From the IMG/VR virus record IMGVR_UViG_3300049489_000987: DNA of 20,000 bases. The stretch is one strand, 5' to 3'. Below, one piece after another: positions 1,154 to 15,243 of the stretch. Under the pieces are notes generated by a model. It searched no databases and was not told the DNA's origin. It saw nothing but the letters and a program-made list of their open reading frames with translations. Both the position numbers and the translations under genes were made by a program. Within the stretch, counting starts at the first letter, position 1. Each line of letters begins with the position of its first letter. Origin of the DNA: an uncultured virus (IMG/VR IMGVR_UViG_3300049489_000987). Taxonomy: Duplodnaviria; Heunggongvirae; Uroviricota; Caudoviricetes.

Positions 1154-1591
1154 ATGGCAACTGCTACAGTAGAGCATATTTATACTTGGAATGGAACTGG
1201 TACAGGTGCAAATGCTACCTATACTAAAGATATAGATATTAATACAATTAATGGAGTTTCATTTTCAGGTTCAAATACAATTTATATGTTAGAAACGACA
1301 ATAGTTGTTCATGGTGGTTCAGCTGCTTTATCAGCAGCTCAATTATATAGAAGATCTTTTGCTGTATTTAAATCAGCAGCAGATGCAGTTTCTATGACAT
1401 TAACAACTGTTGGTGGTTCTTTTGATAATGCAGCTTGTGATAAGCAAGCAATAACACCAGCTGCTACTCCAATAAATTATACAAATCCAAGTACTACAAA
1501 TATAAGAATAACTTTTACTAATAACTATTGGTCAACATCAGCTATTTATTACAGAGCTATTTGTAAAGTAATAGCATATAAGGCAAGCTAA
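1154..1591 (+). CDS. Beta-rich putative tail/receptor-binding protein, paralog 1
   Basis: Starts MATATVEHIYTW and ends ICKVIAYKAS; Thr/Ser/Ala-rich; directly follows the fibre gene. Confidence 0.55.
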   Translation: MATATVEHIYTWNGTGTGANATYTKDIDINTINGVSFSGSNTIYMLETTIVVHGGSAALSAAQLYRRSFAVFKSAADAVSMTLTTVGGSFDNAACDKQAITPAATPINYTNPSTTNIRITFTNNYWSTSAIYYRAICKVIAYKAS

Positions 1592-2013
1592 TGGCAACAG
1601 CAACAGTAGAACATATTTATACTTGGACAGGATCTGGTACATCTGCTACTTATACTAAAAATATAGATTTAAATACAATTAATGGAGTTTCTTTTACAGG
1701 TGCTCATACAATCTATATGTTAGAAACAACAATATCTGCACATGGAGCTGATGTATCAACTATTTCTCAAAGTTATAGAGCAGCAAAAGGGTTTGTAAAA
1801 GACAATACTGATTATTGTTACGATTTTTCTTCTACTGCTCAAGGTGTTTTTTCAGCAGCTGCGGATAATAATGCGCAATCTACAGTTGCTGCAACTCCAA
1901 TAGCATATTCTGTTTCTGGAACAACTGTAACAGTTACATTTACTCCAAATTCAACTGTATATACATTATACTTTAGAGCAATTTGTAAAATAATAGCATA
2001 TAAGGCAAGTTAA
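1591..2013 (+). CDS. Beta-rich putative tail/receptor-binding protein, paralog 2
   Basis: Near-identical termini to paralog 1; TAATG stop/start overlap. Confidence 0.55.
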   Translation: MATATVEHIYTWTGSGTSATYTKNIDLNTINGVSFTGAHTIYMLETTISAHGADVSTISQSYRAAKGFVKDNTDYCYDFSSTAQGVFSAAADNNAQSTVAATPIAYSVSGTTVTVTFTPNSTVYTLYFRAICKIIAYKAS

Positions 2014-2447
2014 TGGCAACACAAACCGTAGAGCATATTTACACTTGGACAGGATCTGGAACAGCTACAACCTATACTAAAAATATAGATATAGGAACTG
2101 TAAATGGCGTTTCATTTGCTGGAGCTAATACTACTTATTTACTAGAAGTAACTTTGCTTGCACATGGAGACAATACAACTTTAGTTAGTTCAAGTCAAGT
2201 TTATAGAAGAACATTTACTATTTATAAAGACACAAGTAATGCTTTAAATATAACAACTATTGTTAAAGCAGGTTCTTTTACACAACAGGCAGATTTTGCT
2301 GCTTTTTCAACAGTAAGCGCTACTCCATTAGCAGTCACTGTTAGTTCAGGAACGACAATTACTATTACATTTACACCTGTATTGTATTCTACAAATCAAC
2401 TTTATTATAGAGCAATAGCTAAAATGATAGCTTATAGAAATGCTTGA
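2013..2447 (+). CDS. Beta-rich putative tail/receptor-binding protein, paralog 3
   Basis: MATQTVEHIYTW...YYRAIAKMIAYRNA; TAATG overlap. Confidence 0.55.
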   Translation: MATQTVEHIYTWTGSGTATTYTKNIDIGTVNGVSFAGANTTYLLEVTLLAHGDNTTLVSSSQVYRRTFTIYKDTSNALNITTIVKAGSFTQQADFAAFSTVSATPLAVTVSSGTTITITFTPVLYSTNQLYYRAIAKMIAYRNA

Positions 2448-4054: not shown

Positions 4055-4528
4055 ATGCCAGTTGTATCTATGCCTATTGTTGATAAGACATTTACTTATG
4101 CTGTAAGTATTCCTGCCACCAGTACTACTGCTGTAAATATTGATATTAGTCAAGTAAAGCTTTTTCAATTATTGCAAAATGCCTATATTAATGAGAATCC
4201 TGCTGCCAGATATTCTTTAACTGCAATTACTGAGTTAGTGGCTATTAAACCAGTAGTTGCTTCTGTTGTAGAATTTCCAGTTTTATATAGGAAATATATT
4301 TCTGTTTTTGTTAAAGATCCAATAGGTGGAATGGTCCATGCAAGAACAATAACAGACAATGATGTTTATGGTAATACTACAATAGGTCAAACTGGATTCC
4401 CAGTAAATCCAATTACATTAACATGGTCTGTTAGTTCTACAACATTAACTATGATTCTTACTCCAACTTCATATTCTGGAATTGTAAATTACACAGTTAA
4501 AACTAACATTATATCTTCCCCATATTAA
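4055..4528 (+). CDS. Distant fourth paralog of the 1154-2447 protein family
   Basis: Aligns by eye: VNIDISQV vs KNIDIGTV, LYRKYISVFVKD vs VYRRTFTIYKD, NPITLTWSVSSTTLTMILTP vs TPLAVTVSSGTTITITFTP. ATG at 4055 or 4070 preferred over GTG at 4004. Confidence 0.5.
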   Translation: MPVVSMPIVDKTFTYAVSIPATSTTAVNIDISQVKLFQLLQNAYINENPAARYSLTAITELVAIKPVVASVVEFPVLYRKYISVFVKDPIGGMVHARTITDNDVYGNTTIGQTGFPVNPITLTWSVSSTTLTMILTPTSYSGIVNYTVKTNIISSPY

Positions 4529-4980
4529 GTTCTCTTATAATAAGCTACCTTTAATGTTTCATCAAGGTCTGAAATATTATCCAGTTTAAACATTAAAGGA
4601 TTTATCCAAGGAAATTTAACATCTCCATTTACTTCATCTGGTATTAAGGTAAGATAAATACCATCTGCATATTTCATTGCTTCTTGATATATTGTCGCTC
4701 CACCAGCAAACCATATATCTCTATCTTCAACTAATGCATCTGATATTGTTTCATAGCTTTTAACACCATCAAAAGAAGCTGTAGATATTACCCTTGTTTC
4801 TCTTCCAGGTAAAGGCTTACCTATACTTAAATAAGTATTATGTCCCATTATTAAAATAGGATCATTACCTTCACTTGTCTTTTTTTTAAAATATTGAAAG
4901 TCAGATTTATAATGCCAAGGAATAGTATTGTTTTTTCCTATAAATCCATCTTTACTTACTGCCGCTATTATATTCTTCAT
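4525..4980 (-). CDS. folA: Dihydrofolate reductase
   Basis: IIAAV..GFIGKNNTIPWH..D, MG..TY.SIGKPLPGR, GGATIY, GDVKFP; coupled to thyA by an ATGA overlap. Confidence 0.95.
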   Translation of the reverse strand: MKNIIAAVSKDGFIGKNNTIPWHYKSDFQYFKKKTSEGNDPILIMGHNTYLSIGKPLPGRETRVISTASFDGVKSYETISDALVEDRDIWFAGGATIYQEAMKYADGIYLTLIPDEVNGDVKFPWINPLMFKLDNISDLDETLKVAYYKRT

Positions 4981-5867
4981 ATAGCCATCTCTGCTTTAAT
5001 AGCTGGATCGTGTTGATAGTTATGAATTGTAAAATCTTCAAATGTTAGTTTTTCTATATCTTCAATTGAACTAACTTGCTTCATGGTCATTGTAGGGGGT
5101 TCATAAGGAACTCTCATTAATTGAGTCTTAACTTGTTCAATATGATTGTTGTAAACATGAGTATCACCACCTGCAAAGATTACTTCTTTGGCTTTTAATC
5201 CTGTAGCTTCTGCTAAGATTCTACACAATATAGAATAACTTATAATATTGAATGGCAATCCTAAGAATGAATCAACAGATCTTTGATACCATTGTAAACT
5301 TAAATTGCCATCATTTACATATAGTTGAAATAATATATGGCATGGAGGCAAAGCCATTTGTGATAATTGAGAAGGATTCCAAGCAGATACAATCATTCTT
5401 CTATCATCAGGATTAGTTTTTAGTGTATTAATTACTTCTCTTAATTGATCTACACCAGGATCTAAATAATCAGATACTTTATCATATAATCCTGATTTTT
5501 GTCCATTAAACTTTCTCCATTGCCAACCATAGCCTAAACCCATATCACCTTCAGGAAGATAAGTTAGACCTCGTTTATCTAAAAATTCCCTTGAAGTATT
5601 GCCTTTCCAGATATTAACATTCTTTTCTTCAAGTAATTTTGTATTAGTTTCTCCTCTAATGAAAAACAATAATTCTTCAATGATACCTTTCATGTACATT
5701 TTCTTGGTTGTAATGATAGGTATTTTATTATCAGTTAAATCAAAACGTAATTGAGTACCAAATATACTTTTAGTACCAATTCCTGTTCTATCAGTTTTGT
5801 TATCACCTGAATATACAATTTGCTTCAATAAATTTAAATAATTCTTTTCGCTCATCTTAAACTCCAT
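4977..5867 (-). CDS. thyA: Thymidylate synthase
   Basis: DRTGIGT, YGWQWR, RRMIVSAWN, catalytic LPPCH, YQRSVDSFLGLPFN (Asn typical of dUMP-specific TS), DTHVYNNH. The start may be the second Met (5855). Confidence 0.97.
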   Translation of the reverse strand: MEFKMSEKNYLNLLKQIVYSGDNKTDRTGIGTKSIFGTQLRFDLTDNKIPIITTKKMYMKGIIEELLFFIRGETNTKLLEEKNVNIWKGNTSREFLDKRGLTYLPEGDMGLGYGWQWRKFNGQKSGLYDKVSDYLDPGVDQLREVINTLKTNPDDRRMIVSAWNPSQLSQMALPPCHILFQLYVNDGNLSLQWYQRSVDSFLGLPFNIISYSILCRILAEATGLKAKEVIFAGGDTHVYNNHIEQVKTQLMRVPYEPPTMTMKQVSSIEDIEKLTFEDFTIHNYQHDPAIKAEMAI

Positions 5868-6031: not shown

Positions 6032-7309
6032 CCTAAAGTTGCAAGAAAGTCCTTGCTTTTAAGCAATGGATGAATTGCTGAAAATTTTTTAATAAAACAT
6101 CAACCATCATGATATAGTACTAACTACTACCCCAAGTCTCTTTATGTTAAAGACCTTTAAATACAGATTATATCCTGATAAAAAACAGCAGCAAATGCTT
6201 GCCAAAGCATTTGGCTGTGTTAGATTCGTTTACAATAACTCTTTAGGTCTTAAAAAAGAACTATATGATACTTATGGTATCAATATATCTAGATTTAATC
6301 TAGATAAGCGTCTTGTTTCTTTAAAAGAAAGATTTAAGTTTCTTAAAGATCCTCCTTCTCAAGCTTTACAACAAGCTATCTTACATTTAGATACTGCCTA
6401 TCAAAATTTTTATAATAAAACTGCTAAACCTCCTAAATTTAAGAATAGATATGATAGACAATCTTTCTCTTTACCTCAAAATGTTAAATTAGACTTTAAG
6501 TCTTCCAAAGTATTTATCCCTAAATTAAAGTGGACTTTGGGTATTTTACATCGTAAAATACCTGTTGATGCAGTAATTAAAACTTGTACTGTATCTAAAA
6601 ATCCTTCTGGTAAGTACTTTATTTCTGTATTATTTGAAGATGGGCTGAAACAGCCCATCAAACAATTAGGTAAAGAGATAGGATTAGATTTAGGTATAAA
6701 AGATCTTATAACTTTTTCTGATGGTTATAAAGAGAAGTCAGGTAAATTCTTAGATAAATATCTAAGTAAAGTTAAAATCTTATGTAAAAATATTTCTTTA
6801 AAGAATAAAGGATCTAAAAACAGAATTAAAGCAAGAATTAAATTAGCTAGAGTTTATGAAAAGATTACTAATTGTAGAGACGATCAACTACATAAATTTT
6901 CTAAAAGAATAATAGACGAAAACCAAGTTATTTTTCTTGAAGATCTAAATGTAAAATCTATGATGGAAAAATCTGGAAGTAATCAAGCTAGAAACATCGG
7001 AGATGTTTCATGGAGAAAACTTATAGATATGTTAGTATATAAAGCGGAGCTTTATGGAAAATATGTCTTTAAAGTAGATCCTTATAATACATCTAAAACA
7101 TGTTCAAATTGTCTTAAAATTAAAGAAGATTTAACATTAAGTATAAGAACATGGCAATGTGAACATTGCCAAGCAGAACATGATAGAGATGTAAATGCAG
7201 CTAAAAATATTTTAAGAATAGGGCAGGAACTGCCCGAATATAAAAAATGCCTTGAAAGCAGCGAAGCTGCTTGATAGGAAGCTTCTACTTTTAAGTAGAA
7301 GTAGTTCAC
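6032..7309 (+). mobile_element. IS200/IS605-family (IS1341-like, TnpB-only) insertion sequence
   Basis: Left-end hairpin TCCTTGCTT-TT-AAGCAATGGA (6050-6070) preceded by AAAG (6046-6049), with TTAC at 6028-6031. Right-end hairpin CTTCTACTT-TT-AAGTAGAAG (7282-7301) preceded by GAAG and followed by TCAC (7306-7309). Both fit IS608-type guide/cleavage pairing. No tnpA in the window. Confidence 0.85.
6144..7274 (+). CDS. tnpB: RNA-guided endonuclease TnpB, catalytic residues intact
   Basis: N-terminal KTFKYRLYP/FGCVRFVYN; RuvC-I GLDLG, RuvC-II LEDL, zinc finger CSNC..CEHC, RuvC-III DRDVNAA. Confidence 0.96.
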   Translation: MLKTFKYRLYPDKKQQQMLAKAFGCVRFVYNNSLGLKKELYDTYGINISRFNLDKRLVSLKERFKFLKDPPSQALQQAILHLDTAYQNFYNKTAKPPKFKNRYDRQSFSLPQNVKLDFKSSKVFIPKLKWTLGILHRKIPVDAVIKTCTVSKNPSGKYFISVLFEDGLKQPIKQLGKEIGLDLGIKDLITFSDGYKEKSGKFLDKYLSKVKILCKNISLKNKGSKNRIKARIKLARVYEKITNCRDDQLHKFSKRIIDENQVIFLEDLNVKSMMEKSGSNQARNIGDVSWRKLIDMLVYKAELYGKYVFKVDPYNTSKTCSNCLKIKEDLTLSIRTWQCEHCQAEHDRDVNAAKNILRIGQELPEYKKCLESSEAA

Positions 7310-7329
7310 ATTTAAAGATTGCATTTTGG
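7221..7329 (+). ncRNA. TnpB omega-RNA (reRNA) scaffold plus flank-derived guide (starting at 7310, ATTTAAAGATTGCATTTTGG)
   Basis: Hairpins GGGCAG-GAA-CTGCCC and AAGCAGC-GAA-GCTGCTT, then the right-end hairpin. TGAA (7253-7256) could pseudoknot with the terminal TTCA. Overlaps the tnpB 3' end, as established for TnpB. The 5' boundary is uncertain. Confidence 0.75.
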
Positions 7330-7403: not shown

Positions 7404-7466
7404 TTAAAAAAGCAAATCACCAAGCATTAAAACAATTAGAAAAGATATCATTAACCAAATAAACAT
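7404..7466 (-). CDS. 20-aa hydrophobic micro-peptide MFIWLMISFLIVLMLGDLLF
   Basis: AGGTG RBS-like site; a paralogous copy lies at 7798-7842. Confidence 0.4.
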   Translation of the reverse strand: MFIWLMISFLIVLMLGDLLF

Positions 7467-7870
7467 AATCACCTAAAAGAATAAAAGTATAACAAGTATT
7501 GCCGAAAGGATACTAGATCCTATTAACAAACATGCTAAATATAAAAACAAAGCCATAGCAGATAATACTAAGTATGATTTGTTATTATATATATCATATA
7601 AGTTCAAGTAAAACTTACCCAAACCCCTAAGATATAAAGCTGAAGTTAAAAAGAAAACACAAATAATAATATTAAGCATACTTACTTCAAAAATGATAAG
7701 GAGTCATTGTTTTGTGATAATAGCATGAAAAACGTACATTGTATATGACCAGGCAATTGCAATAATAAGCAATAAATTAAAACTCATCTTATTACCTTTA
7801 AGGTATAACAATTAGAAAAGATATCATTAACCAAGCAAACATAATCACCTAAAAAACAAAAGTTTAACGA
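7431..7870. repeat. Direct repeat with 376-bp period (tandem duplication of a membrane gene plus micro-peptide)
   Basis: AACAATTAGAAAAGATATCATTAACCAA..AAACATAATCACCTAAAA at 7431 and 7807, about 48 bp near-identical, with similarity decaying beyond. Confidence 0.85.
7473..7679 (-). CDS. Small two-TM membrane protein (paralog of 7845-8066)
   Basis: Two hydrophobic segments around YNNKSY; ends ILVILLFF. Confidence 0.6.
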   Translation of the reverse strand: MLNIIICVFFLTSALYLRGLGKFYLNLYDIYNNKSYLVLSAMALFLYLACLLIGSSILSAILVILLFF

Positions 7871-8249: not shown

Positions 8250-9296
8250 TTATCTTATAACCTTTAAGTCATGAGGTTTAGACTCATGCCAAGAAGCATT
8301 TGAAATTTTAATAAATTCAGGGTTTTCTTTTAGCCAATTTAAATTATTTACTCCCTGATAAGAACAACCTGATTGAATACCATCTATTAATTTTTGCAAT
8401 ATAGATTTATATGATCCTTTAGGATTAACTAAAGCAGATACTCCTTCAACCCTACTTGTTTTATGAGTTGATGAACCTACATATTCTTTATATCGTATTC
8501 CATCAATAGTAATAAATGATCCTGGTGTTTCATCACATCCTGCAAATAAATTGCCTGACATAACTAAATCACCAAAACATAAACTCTTAACTACATCGCC
8601 AGCAGAAGTTACTCCACCATCAGCAATAATATACGTTTGCTGCCCTGTGCTTGCCTTTATAAAGCGTTTTGCTTCAAATACGTCCATCAGTGCAGTTAAT
8701 TGCGGAACCCCTGCTCCTGTTTCAATTCTTGTTGTGCAAGTGCTTCCTGCACCAATATTAACTTTAACAACATCAGCCCCTGCACTATAAAGACAAACAG
8801 CTCCATCATAAGTAGCTACATTACCAGCTATGATTAAAGATTTATCTAATTTAGTTCTTTTATCATCAATAAAAGAAACCATTGATTCACACAATTTAGA
8901 ATGACCATGAGCAACATCAATGCAAAAGATTTTAATACCTAATTCAAGGAATTTAGTAACTAGAACTTTGTCATTACTTTGCACGCCAACTGAAACCCCA
9001 ACAAAATTAAAAATATCTTCACCATATAGTTCCTTTAATTCCTGTATAATCTTAATTTGATCTTCTACAGAATCAAATCTATGTAAAAGACTTAATCCTT
9101 TAGATTCATAGTTTGCCTTAATTAATTCAATTCCAGTAATAGTTTTCATATTAGCAGGAACCATAGGATGATTAAATGTAAATCCCCTTATCGAAACATC
9201 AGTTTTAATTTCACTTCTTGATTTAATATTAGAATATTTAGGAACTAATAATACATCAGAAAAAGTTATTCCGTTTTCAATAAATTTTGCAGTCAT
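8250..9296 (-). CDS. guaB: IMP dehydrogenase / GMP reductase family protein lacking CBS domains
   Basis: TFSDVLLVP, IDVAHGHS, IAGNVAT, catalytic-loop GAGSTCTTR, IIADGG, VEGV. 348 aa. IMPDH versus GMPR activity is unresolved. Confidence 0.85.
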   Translation of the reverse strand: MTAKFIENGITFSDVLLVPKYSNIKSRSEIKTDVSIRGFTFNHPMVPANMKTITGIELIKANYESKGLSLLHRFDSVEDQIKIIQELKELYGEDIFNFVGVSVGVQSNDKVLVTKFLELGIKIFCIDVAHGHSKLCESMVSFIDDKRTKLDKSLIIAGNVATYDGAVCLYSAGADVVKVNIGAGSTCTTRIETGAGVPQLTALMDVFEAKRFIKASTGQQTYIIADGGVTSAGDVVKSLCFGDLVMSGNLFAGCDETPGSFITIDGIRYKEYVGSSTHKTSRVEGVSALVNPKGSYKSILQKLIDGIQSGCSYQGVNNLNWLKENPEFIKISNASWHESKPHDLKVIR

Positions 9297-13278: not shown

Positions 13279-13440
13279 ATAATTTGAGAAAATACTGATA
13301 GAAATTATTATCATTGATAATATTGATGAATAAACTAGATCTTTAAATGAAGCATTTATAATTAATGATAAAATTATTGATAGTATAGGGGTTCCAACAA
13401 ATGTTACAACTGAAACTGCAATTAATTCATTTTTTGTCAT
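13252..13440 (-). CDS. Small two-TM membrane protein (paralog of 13707-13895)
   Basis: MTKNELIAVS...NYLNQRNNLS aligns with MRKKDLIAIS...NYLTIRNYLR; both 62 aa. The start at 13440 is inferred from the paralogy. Confidence 0.65.
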   Translation of the reverse strand: MTKNELIAVSVVTFVGTPILSIILSLIINASFKDLVYSSILSMIIISISIFSNYLNQRNNLS

Positions 13441-13476
13441 ATAAATAAACCTGGCTCCAAAAATACTAATATTTAT

Positions 13477-13710
13477 CCTTATCAACAAGAAGACCCTTGC
13501 TTTTAAGCAAGGGATGAATTGTTAAAAAAGATCAATAAAATTTAAAAACATCTGCATACCCTGATATATAATGTATAAGAAGTTATTACGAAAACCAAGT
13601 ATTAACTTCTATACTAAAAATTGTGGCAGGAACTGTCTTAATTTAAAAAACTCTTTGAAAGAAGCTTCTTCTGATAAGAAGCCCTTACATTAATGTAAGG
13701 GCAAGTTCAC
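13477..13710 (+). mobile_element. Non-autonomous IS200/IS605 mini-element (PATE/MITE-like) retaining an omega-RNA
   Basis: Left end CAAGAAGACCCTTGCTTTTAAGCAAGGGATGAATTG resembles 6042-6077. The 3' part GGCAGGAACTG...TTGAAA...GATAAGAAG-hairpin-AGTTCAC resembles 7222-7309. No ORF. Confidence 0.88.
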
Positions 13711-13895
13711 CTCAGATAATTCCTTATGGTTAAATAATTAACCAAAATACAAATTGAAACTATACCCATTGATAACACCCAAGAAACAACAGCTTGTTTC
13801 TGCGTAGCATTTATAGCTGCTGATACGAGTATTGATAGGCTAGAAGTTACAACAAGCGATAGCATTGATATTGCTATTAAATCTTTTTTTCTCAT
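13707..13895 (-). CDS. Small two-TM membrane protein
   Basis: 62 aa; its stop codon (TGA) is supplied by the mini-element right end. Confidence 0.65.
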   Translation of the reverse strand: MRKKDLIAISMLSLVVTSSLSILVSAAINATQKQAVVSWVLSMGIVSICILVNYLTIRNYLR

Positions 13896-14302
13896 ATTTG
13901 AATTCCCATAGTTTTTAATCTTATTTTAATAGATTTTTCTGGAACATTAAACATAGTAGCAAGAGTTTCTATTGGATTTGATCTTGGATAATAAGCCAAT
14001 ATCATTGCAGGTGGCATTAATAGTTCAGCTGCAAATTTAAATGGTTCTTCAGAAAGAATCTTTCCTAATTCAATAGCTACAGCAAAATTATGATTAGAAC
14101 AAGATTTGTCAATGTAAATTCTTCTATTGTATTTATCAAACCAAGAATCATTGTTTCCAAATTCAGTTTTTTCAAGTATAGCTGAGAAAACTCTAAAACC
14201 AAGTATATCGGCTATAGAAATAGCATTTATTGGCGGCTCTACAACATTTAGTATTAAAAGAATTTCTGATGCAGATTTGCCAATGAGATCTTTATAATTC
14301 AT
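13892..14302 (-). CDS. ImmA/IrrE (DUF955)-like protein with degenerate HExxH
   Basis: PPIN..IA..LG, RRIYI, FAVAIELGK (normally AHELGH), FAAELLMP, and C-terminal LATMFNV..IKIRL. Confidence 0.75.
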   Translation of the reverse strand: MNYKDLIGKSASEILLILNVVEPPINAISIADILGFRVFSAILEKTEFGNNDSWFDKYNRRIYIDKSCSNHNFAVAIELGKILSEEPFKFAAELLMPPAMILAYYPRSNPIETLATMFNVPEKSIKIRLKTMGIQI

Positions 14303-14768
14303 AGCCAACCAATCCTTTTAAACCTGATGACTCTAGTCTAAGCAACATAGCTTCAAAGCTAACATTGAATATTTTAGCTAAATCAGCAACAGGTGTTCTT
14401 GATTTAGGAAAATTTGCAATAATAAAGTCTTTAGGCAATATTAAGTCACAGGCAAATGCATTTGCTTTTATGCAATTAATTGAACAATTATAATTGCTTA
14501 AGACAGTATCTGCAAACAAATGACCAAGCATATGAGCAACGATAAAATTATTATCTTTAGTAGATTTTCTATTAATTATAATTTTAGGATTTAATTCATC
14601 AAAATTAATGCTTGCATCATTATTGTCTGCAAAATCTCCTTCAAATATTTTGATATTAAGTTTGGAAGAAATTAAAAAGGTATTAATTGGAGGATAGATG
14701 ATACCTAGATCAAGTAGAATGTCTACTGCTCCAAGTTTCTCTTTTCTAAATTCTTTCCAATTACTCAT
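14292..14768 (-). CDS. ImmA/IrrE (DUF955)-like protein, HExxH changed to HMLGH
   Basis: PPIN, PKIIINR, FIVAHMLGH, ANAFACDLILP, LAKIFNVS.EAM..RL. Start at MSNWKEFR. Confidence 0.8.
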   Translation of the reverse strand: MSNWKEFRKEKLGAVDILLDLGIIYPPINTFLISSKLNIKIFEGDFADNNDASINFDELNPKIIINRKSTKDNNFIVAHMLGHLFADTVLSNYNCSINCIKANAFACDLILPKDFIIANFPKSRTPVADLAKIFNVSFEAMLLRLESSGLKGLVGYEL

Positions 14769-15243
14769 GACAATAGAAGTTTTCCATACCAAGTGAATTT
14801 AATCTTGCTTTCATAACTGAATATGAAACATAAAACAATCTAGCTAAATCTGAAATTTTAGATACATTACTAAATGTAGCTGCGCTAAGCAAAGGTATTG
14901 GAACCAAAAGATTTACTGCAAATATTATTGATTTATATCGCAGATTTTCATTTTCTTTTTTATCAAAATCTTCAAGAGGAACTAAATGGTTGTAATTAAG
15001 AATATATCCAATAGCCTGGGAAATCCAAAGGCGCTTATCAACTTCTGACAAATTACCATTATATAAAATAATAGGATTATTTTCTTTCCATATAACTTTT
15101 GTTTTAGTTACTTTGTCATCAGAAAATGCTGAAATATCTAATTTGTATAGAATATATTCTATATTAACTGGGTAGTGAAGAATACCTAGCTTTATTAAAA
15201 TAGATTGTGCAGTTAGGTATCTAAATTCTTTCCAATTACTCAT
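14761..15243 (-). CDS. ImmA/IrrE (DUF955)-like protein, HExxH lost
   Basis: YPVNI, PIILYN..LS...KRLWISQAIGY, FAVNLLVP, LARLFYVS.SVMKARL. Confidence 0.72.
   Translation of the reverse strand: MSNWKEFRYLTAQSILIKLGILHYPVNIEYILYKLDISAFSDDKVTKTKVIWKENNPIILYNGNLSEVDKRLWISQAIGYILNYNHLVPLEDFDKKENENLRYKSIIFAVNLLVPIPLLSAATFSNVSKISDLARLFYVSYSVMKARLNSLGMENFYCHE

What the first reader, a model, noticed from the sequence alone, without database searches (positions are those of the whole stretch)
6905..6938. Hairpin with invariant GAAAACCAA loop inside tnpB, the only mid-gene piece recognisable in the mini-element
Seen: ACGAAAACCAAGT occurs at 6916-6928 (codons D-E-N-Q-V, just before the RuvC-II Glu) and at 13588-13600. 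In both, the 9-nt loop GAAAACCAA caps a long stem of different sequence: AAGAATAATAGAC/GTTATTTTTCTT (11 bp) in tnpB, and GTATAAGAAGTTATTAC/GTATTAACTTCTATAC (15 bp, 13573-13614) in the mini-element, each with one T-T mismatch and one bulge. In tnpB it lies about 290 nt upstream of the scaffold; in the mini-element it is about 10 nt upstream. Inference: this is a nucleic-acid-level functional module, such as a distal or split omega-RNA domain, a TnpB loading/processing signal, or an ssDNA site for TnpA. The ENQV peptide may then be constrained by RNA structure. I do not know of a description of this element, but cannot check the literature.
Basis: partly seen in the sequence, partly recalled or inferred. 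Interest (0 to 1): 0.85.

Follow-up and report, generated by a model that had tools for sequence, protein, structure and literature searches.

The report
Hidden mobile hairpin in tnpB genes
The genes for TnpB, the small RNA-guided DNA cutter that is the ancestor of CRISPR-Cas12, very often hide one short hairpin with a fixed nine-letter loop that has moved around the gene during evolution and is kept by many guide-only mini-transposons, which points to an unnoticed RNA signal in how these enzymes are made or controlled.

Summary
The 13-mer occurs only twice in the window: in tnpB and in an ORF-less mini-element, 10 nt before its omegaRNA. The window's own tnpB stem is weak, but homologs show nucleotide-level selection: Gln codon CAA in 53 of 53 (31.5 expected), closing pairs covary, and stems beat synonymous recoding in 52 of 54. 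Genes without the ENQ site often carry the loop elsewhere (21 of 35, 6.2 expected), in all three reading frames, almost never twice. IS607-type tnpB genes carry it too (Thr codon ACC 24 of 24, 3.0 expected). In all, 116 of 179 non-redundant tnpB genes have it (16 expected); iscB 0 of 18; nuclease-dead copies 0 of 4. Guide-only elements in bacteria, archaea and a second viral contig keep it, but not all (9 of 26 in unselected genomes). No Rfam match; not found in 9 paper searches or in this scan's earlier notes. Best reading (inferred, about 0.5): an RNA tag that active TnpB binds to mature or control its own transcript. Published recoded and trimmed systems work, so it is probably not essential for cutting.

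The parts
6042..6084 (+). Left end of the tnpB-only IS605-type element, hairpin 6050-6070
   Evidence: 86% identical to 13486-13528; folds z -2.35
6144..7274 (+). tnpB, 376 aa, intact D-E-D triad
   Evidence: Pfam HTH_OrfB_IS605, OrfB_IS605, Cas12f1-like_TNB; best PDB matches are ISDra2 TnpB and a design based on it; triad
6905..6938 (+). Embedded hairpin, loop GAAAACCAA at 6918-6926 (codons E-N-Q)
   Evidence: weak alone, conserved with covariation in homologs
6939..6941 (+). Codon of RuvC-II Glu266, directly after the stem
   Evidence: invariant E266 in alignment A1
7221..7309 (+). omegaRNA scaffold and right end (first hairpin 7221-7235, terminal hairpin 7281-7302, ends GTTCAC)
   Evidence: fold z -4.8; member of alignment A2/model R1 (matches by construction)
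7310..7329 (+). Predicted guide of the tnpB element (flank after the right end)
   Evidence: inference from known TnpB architecture (PMC10278001)
13486..13528 (+). Left end of the ORF-less mini-element, hairpin 13494-13513
13563..13572 (+). Possible extended -10 box just before the hairpin (by eye only)
   Evidence: sequence; the consensus promoter scan found 0 sites in 13400-13800, so unproven
13573..13614 (+). Mini-element hairpin, loop GAAAACCAA at 13590-13598
   Evidence: RNA z -4.63, 1 of 200 shuffles as good
13625..13710 (+). Standalone omegaRNA scaffold and right end of the mini-element
   Evidence: 80% identical over 41 nt to 7222-7262; 13565-13710 folds at z -6.1
13711..13730 (+). Predicted guide of the mini-element
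   Evidence: inference from known architecture

Best explanation
The hairpin is a position-independent cis-acting RNA tag of tnpB transcripts, one per element, with a structured 9-nt loop on a stem of free sequence. Shown: it is selected at nucleotide level, on the sense strand, in IS605- and IS607-type tnpB, in any frame and at many positions, and is kept 5' of the scaffold in many guide-only elements. Inferred: its reader is nuclease-active TnpB itself, which uses the loop to recognise its own precursor RNA and couple RuvC-dependent cutting of the mRNA (guide maturation, shut-off of its own translation, or holding the nuclease in check until maturation). Guide-only elements keep the tag to be served in trans by TnpB made elsewhere. 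It is a life-cycle signal, not a core part of the cutting RNP.
For: Codon bias at the loop: CAA 53 of 53 (31.5 expected), AAC 48 of 61 (24.0); control codons at the same site unbiased. Stem -11.3 vs -4.9 kcal/mol under synonymous recoding, better in 52 of 54; 35 genes without the peptide: -3.5 vs -3.3, 16 of 35. Closing pairs: 52 of 54 and 51 of 54 standard, five and four pair types, covariation 0.70 vs 0.30 shuffled, 0 of 500. G-T oppositions outnumber A-C (10 vs 3; 11 vs 1), so the sense strand folds. Relocation: exact loop elsewhere in 12 of 35 genes lacking the ENQ site (2.7 expected) vs 0 of 58 that have it; Methanobacterium tnpB has it as A-K-T-K-L in another frame on a 14-16 pair stem. 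IS607-type: ACC 24 of 24 (3.0), stems better than null in 39 of 40; 15 of 15 full-length RAGATH-18/tnpB loci. 116 of 179 genes vs 16.4, only one gene with two. iscB 0 of 18. Two nuclease-dead types (oppF-linked TldR L540, and L546) lack it yet nest in a clade (support 0.96) whose 6 intact members all have it; 22 of 22 KNH-type intact genes have it. Present in bacteria, an archaeon and viral contigs, which favours an element-encoded reader. RuvC-dependent self-processing is published (PMC10278001).
Against: ISDra2 TnpB recoded upstream of its last 224 nt still processed its transcript and edited in plants (10.64898/2026.09.09.750255, passages), and 5'-trimmed ISDra2 omegaRNA works (PMC10097598); whether native ISDra2 has the hairpin is untested. 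59 of 175 intact genes got no call, including most divergent ones (4 of 20) and 21 of 39 xYD-type. 17 of 26 ORF-less scaffolds in unselected genomes lack it; 4 ORF-less or unclassifiable RAGATH-18 hits showed none. The dead copies are only one or two evolutionary events and also differ in being immobile. Homologs are related, so P values from codon counts overstate independence. The window's own tnpB stem is no better than recoded controls.
Confidence: 0.5

Rival explanations
1. The hairpin is read by a host RNA factor (antitermination, stability or a host RNase) that lets the 3'-distal omegaRNA be transcribed or survive.
For: Position independence; kept downstream of promoter-like sequences in minis (L026); Bacillaceae minis also carry a boxA-like word upstream (label recalled); dispensable in heterologous systems with strong promoters.
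Against: Same loop in Bacillota, Campylobacterota, Aquificota, Enterobacteriaceae, an archaeon and viral contigs; absent from iscB (0 of 18) and from TldR loci, which also need a downstream guide; no Rfam family.
Confidence: 0.2
2. It acts as single-stranded DNA: a self-mark on the element's top strand read by TnpB or repair proteins during homing or excision.
For: Loss tracks immobile, nuclease-dead copies; the mini hairpin is also stable as DNA (z -2.9); sense strand equals the IS605 top strand.
Against: Frequent G-T pairs; equally conserved in IS607-type elements, which move by serine recombinase on duplex DNA (established knowledge); two promoter-less minis lack it (L307, L392).
Confidence: 0.13
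3. It is a distal or split domain of the omegaRNA that stays in the mature RNP.
For: Sits 10-60 nt from the scaffold in minis; some processed omegaRNAs are long, 79-466 nt (PMC10278001).
Against: Usually 300-400 nt or more upstream in genes; no preferred pairing of loop with own scaffold (10 of 21, -5.1 vs -4.9); TldR binds a ~100-nt scaffold (PMC10705468) and its loci lack the hairpin; trimmed guides work.
Confidence: 0.1
4. It is a binding site for the Y1 transposase TnpA.
For: Kept in non-autonomous elements; TnpA reads ssDNA hairpins (10.1101/2023.03.14.532601).
Against: Present with serine recombinase elements; absent from iscB elements; mini-transposons with only the two ends excise.
Confidence: 0.03
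5. ENQ is only a protein motif and the match in the mini-element is a leftover or chance.
For: The window's tnpB stem is weak; minis derive from tnpB elements by deletion.
Against: Synonymous-site bias, compensatory pairs, three frames, mutual exclusion of sites, many independent minis.
Confidence: 0.01

Closest known systems
TnpB omegaRNA (reRNA) of IS200/IS605 and IS607 elements, including RAGATH-18 (RF03064)
   Same: Same transcript, same elements; the window's 3' scaffolds are ordinary omegaRNAs
   Different: Published models cover about 250 nt at the right end; this hairpin lies 300 nt or more upstream in genes, moves, and matches no Rfam family
Standalone omegaRNAs / PATE-like elements (PMC10691335; 10.1101/2023.03.14.532601)
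   Same: The mini-element is one: two ends and a scaffold, no ORF
   Different: The passages read do not mention a retained mid-gene hairpin
Inhibitory region of AmaTnpB mRNA, nt 825-875 (PMC10278001)
   Same: A cis-acting mRNA feature next to the RuvC-II codon that affects TnpB
   Different: Mapped 3' of Glu271 and proposed to pair with the omegaRNA; a loop-like GAAAGCCAA lies at nt 777-785 (read by eye), inside the 825-nt fragment that did not inhibit. One gene, no conservation analysis
Picornavirus cis-acting replication element (recalled, no call)
   Same: Hairpin with conserved A-rich loop hidden in a coding region, at different places in different lineages
   Different: Viral RNA replication template; no homology implied
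Group II intron domain IVa maturase site; LINE 3' stem-loop kept by SINEs (both recalled, no call)
   Same: A mobile-element protein recognises a hairpin in its own RNA; non-autonomous copies keep the signal
   Different: Fixed position, reverse transcriptase partner

Membership tests
IS605/IS1341-type TnpB element (window 6042-7309) | TnpB with HTH, OrfB and TNB domains and D-E-D triad | tested here: met
IS605/IS1341-type TnpB element (window 6042-7309) | Subterminal hairpins at both ends, omegaRNA over the 3' end | tested here: met
IS605/IS1341-type TnpB element (window 6042-7309) | RNA-guided cleavage, mobilisation by TnpA in trans | not testable with these tools
   no tnpA-sized homolog sought beyond the window; no genome held
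Standalone omegaRNA / PATE-like element (13486-13710) | Both ends plus scaffold, no ORF | tested here: met
Standalone omegaRNA / PATE-like element (13486-13710) | Expressed and used by TnpB in trans | not testable with these tools
   no consensus promoter; no RNA data
Any Rfam RNA family (for the hairpin) | Match to a covariance model | tested here: not met
   window, 20 and 14 mini loci: no match over the hairpin at E up to 5, 0.5, 0.5
omegaRNA core (for the hairpin) | Fixed place in the scaffold and needed by guide-binding proteins | tested here: not met
   position varies; absent from TldR loci
TnpA (Y1) end hairpin | Subterminal, confined to Y1 elements, shared by iscB and tnpB elements | tested here: not met
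   internal; in IS607-type genes; iscB 0 of 18
AmaTnpB inhibitory mRNA region | Lies 3' of the RuvC-II codon and pairs with the omegaRNA | tested here: not met
   mostly 5' of the codon (3 genes at +8, 2 at +27); no cognate pairing

The most novel reading that the evidence does not exclude
TnpB nucleases of both IS605 and IS607 families have a second, so far unrecognised RNA ligand: a portable 9-nt-loop hairpin in their own mRNA that licenses or restrains RuvC activity, has re-evolved at many sites under any reading frame, dictates well-known peptide motifs (ENQ, KNH, KTKP), is kept by guide-only parasites and is dropped on domestication. Codon-optimised editors have deleted it unknowingly.
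Probability: 0.45. Interest if true: 0.93.

Novelty: new variant of a known kind. Interest (0 to 1): 0.88.

Why it matters
tnpB is among the most abundant genes and the ancestor of Cas12. How TnpB finds, cuts and controls its own mRNA is open; this gives a precise 9-nt target to mutate without touching the protein. It shows that conserved peptide motifs next to the RuvC-II glutamate are partly RNA-driven, gives a search tag for guide-only elements, and may explain differences between native-locus and recoded TnpB editors. A signal that relocates repeatedly inside a coding region across three frames is unusual in itself.

Tried and rejected
No whole genome for the window. Exact searches for the window's mini or left end in viral contigs: 0. 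Loose loop-plus-scaffold pattern in viral contigs: 27 hits, 1 real (L026), the rest chance or coding. Genome scan: 49 of 79 hits failed the scaffold filter; at least 3 of these are real minis on inspection (L196, L234, L213). Pairing of the loop with its own omegaRNA: no signal. Promoter scan at the mini: 0 sites. RNA runs for a Methanobacterium mini: no RNA holder listed. Native ISDra2 DNA could not be reached: the element is chromosomal and the supplement seen gives proteins only; its protein has K-A-K-T-K-L where Methanobacterium carries the loop, a lead only. No further TldR lineage found. ORF-less IS607-type minis: 4 poor candidates, none with the hairpin. Earlier scan notes: four look-ups, one unrelated note. 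No structure or complex prediction was run, as RNA cannot be the scored partner.

Full report
Observation. The 13-mer is at 6916-6928 and 13588-13600 and nowhere else at up to one mismatch; chance gives 0.02. The stems are as described. The first copy is in a 376-aa tnpB, ending at the RuvC-II Glu266 codon; the second is in an ORF-less element with a left end 86% like that of the tnpB element and a scaffold 80% like its omegaRNA. Alone, the mini hairpin is strong (z -4.6) and the tnpB hairpin is not (z -1.1; z -0.2 against synonymous recoding). No genome is held for the window; its gene content suggests large phage DNA (inference).

Selection at the ENQ site. From 158 loci, 145 gave a usable alignment and 93 were non-redundant. 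The Gln codon was CAA in 53 of 53 (31.5 expected from each gene's own usage), the Asn codon AAC in 48 of 61 (24.0), the Glu codon unbiased (42 of 55, 38.2); Tyr and Asp codons at the same site in other genes were unbiased. With 4 genes of shifted register set aside, 54 xxQ genes fold a loop-spanning stem at -11.3 vs -4.9 kcal/mol for recoded versions (better in 52 of 54, p at most 0.05 in 32), while 35 xxD genes do not (-3.5 vs -3.3; 16 of 35; 1 of 35). The closing pair is standard in 52 of 54 (C-G 36, T-A 11, G-C 3, T-G 1, A-T 1), the next in 51 of 54, the third in only 29 of 54 because bulges vary; covariation 0.70 vs 0.30 shuffled, 0 of 500, and far above slid registers. The flanking residues therefore covary as D/V, S/A, R/T, Q/L. 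Relatedness inflates these counts.

The hairpin moves. Methanobacterium tnpB has REFD at the usual site but the same loop about 30 codons earlier, read as A-K-T-K-L in another frame, on a long stem. The exact loop occurs elsewhere in 12 of 35 genes lacking the usual site (permutation mean 2.7, maximum 7) and in 0 of 58 that have it; a looser form in 21 of 35 (6.2) vs 3 of 58 (3.5); many of these sites have stems at z below -2.5, some do not. KNH-type genes (ISEfa4, IS609-like) carry AAAAACCAC one codon earlier. IS607-type genes, found from L548 beside an IS607 transposase, carry it as V-K-T-K-P or R-K-P: of 96 loci, 50 non-redundant; serine recombinase neighbour seen in 16; 40 site calls (one is an ENQ-type gene), 39 better than recoded; Thr codon ACC 24 of 24 (3.0), preceding G 23 of 24 (3.6); 10 lack it at that site. 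Pooled: 377 ORFs, 179 representatives below 75% identity; a strict call was met by 116 (16.4 expected), one gene twice; frames 72, 9 and 36; nine sites recur in two or more genes, singletons may be false; loop ends G..A 85, A..C 26, A..A 6, G..C 0, as for a non-standard closing pair (isostericity recalled). By class: KNH 22 of 22, IS607-like 32 of 41, ENQ-like 40 of 53, xYD 18 of 39, divergent 4 of 20.

Guide-only elements. A loop-plus-scaffold pattern gave 1 real hit of 27 in viral contigs, L026, with an 18-pair perfect stem behind a TTGACA/TATTAT pair, and 79 hits in genomes, none with a TnpB match within 1.2 kb. Thirty passed a scaffold filter blind to the hairpin (Sulfurovum, Sulfurimonas, Bacillaceae and relatives, Aquificaceae, Syntrophomonadaceae, Methanobacterium); 12 of 14 distinct ones have two closing pairs vs 4 of 40 distinct others, two of which are real minis. 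A scaffold-only model in five of these genomes: 47 of 52 hits examined, 34 ORF-less, 30 with the loop within 70 nt, several families new; these genomes were chosen by a loop hit. In genomes not so chosen, 73 of 75 hits examined, 26 ORF-less: 9 (four families; one read by eye) have the hairpin, 17 do not, 7 of them one family with another leader. So it is common, not obligatory.

What it goes with. iscB: 0 of 18 distinct coding regions and upstream 450 nt (22 of 30 loci taken, 4 duplicates dropped). RAGATH-18-linked tnpB: 15 of 15 full-length loci, 5 more cut by contig ends. Non-D-E-D representatives: 0 of 4. Six oppF-type TldR loci (oppF neighbour checked for 3) and a separate dead copy beside uvrA keep a scaffold of the same class but have no loop, and both types nest among KNH-type intact genes that all have it. 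This is one or two events only.

Mechanism. Shown: a sense-strand hairpin, one per element, tied to tnpB and not to the transposase class. Inferred: RNA rather than DNA (G-T pairs, IS607 presence), TnpB rather than host as reader (range across bacteria, an archaeon and viruses; loss in dead copies), and a role in maturation or control rather than in the cutting RNP. Against an essential role: recoded ISDra2 single transcripts still process and edit in plants and trimmed guides work, though ISDra2's own DNA was not checked.

Literature seen. PMC10278001: parts 1-3 of 5 of the text and supplement searches. Passages only: 10.1101/2023.03.14.532601 (23), PMC10691335, PMC11219805, PMC10705468, PMC10097598, PMC11061315, PMC13521648, PMC13639567, PMC13622181, 10.64898/2026.09.09.750255 (supplements closed, its recoded sequence unseen). 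PMC8612924: supplement search and part 1 of 2 of file 1 (62, 74). Nine searches showed no description; those with the loop sequence gave 0 papers (21, 129). Most subscription papers are outside the library, so a prior description is not excluded. No Rfam match.

Verdict. Real, widespread and apparently undescribed component of a known system; function inferred. Interest 0.88.

Noticed in passing
L194, L206, L252, L254, L259 and related Bacillota minis, about 60-100 nt before the loop: A word like CTCTTTGAAAACTG (resembles rRNA boxA; label recalled) and a further hairpin precede the loop hairpin, as if these guide-only RNAs need antitermination
   Followed up: no
L368, L383, L384, L389, L393, L398, L400, 100 nt before the scaffold: A multi-copy guide-only family with a different conserved leader; five hold GAACACCAA, one letter off the loop, not predicted as this hairpin
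   Followed up: partly
L546:1568-2710: Nuclease-dead TnpB (E-K-G) next to uvrA with an intact-looking scaffold, a possible further TldR
   Followed up: partly
L267, L277, L282, L286: Methanobacterium TnpB lacks the usual RuvC-II Glu (Y-V-G-N-V) yet keeps the hairpin; may be a rearranged active site
   Followed up: no
L026:1541-1661; L540-L545 3' ends: Rfam Ref70 (Enterococcus sRNA 70) weakly matches this scaffold class (E 0.12) and is probably a TnpB/TldR guide RNA
   Followed up: no
L014:2967-2975: The TnpA catalytic motif Y-I-E-N-Q also spells the same nine letters; there it is likely protein-driven
   Followed up: no
PMC10278001 supplement file 2, ortholog 35: A Mycobacterium tnpB sequence has the loop with G-C/G-C flanks in its zinc-finger region
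   Followed up: no
window 1154-2447: Three tandem paralogous ORFs of 140-145 aa
   Followed up: no
window 4525-5867, 8250-9296, 13892-15243: thyA (Pfam) with a dihydrofolate-reductase-like neighbour (by eye), an IMPDH/GMP reductase gene, and a run of three similar ORFs, the first IrrE/M78-like
   Followed up: no
window 7428-7485 and 7804-7861: 58-nt direct repeat, 90% identical, just downstream of the tnpB element
   Followed up: no
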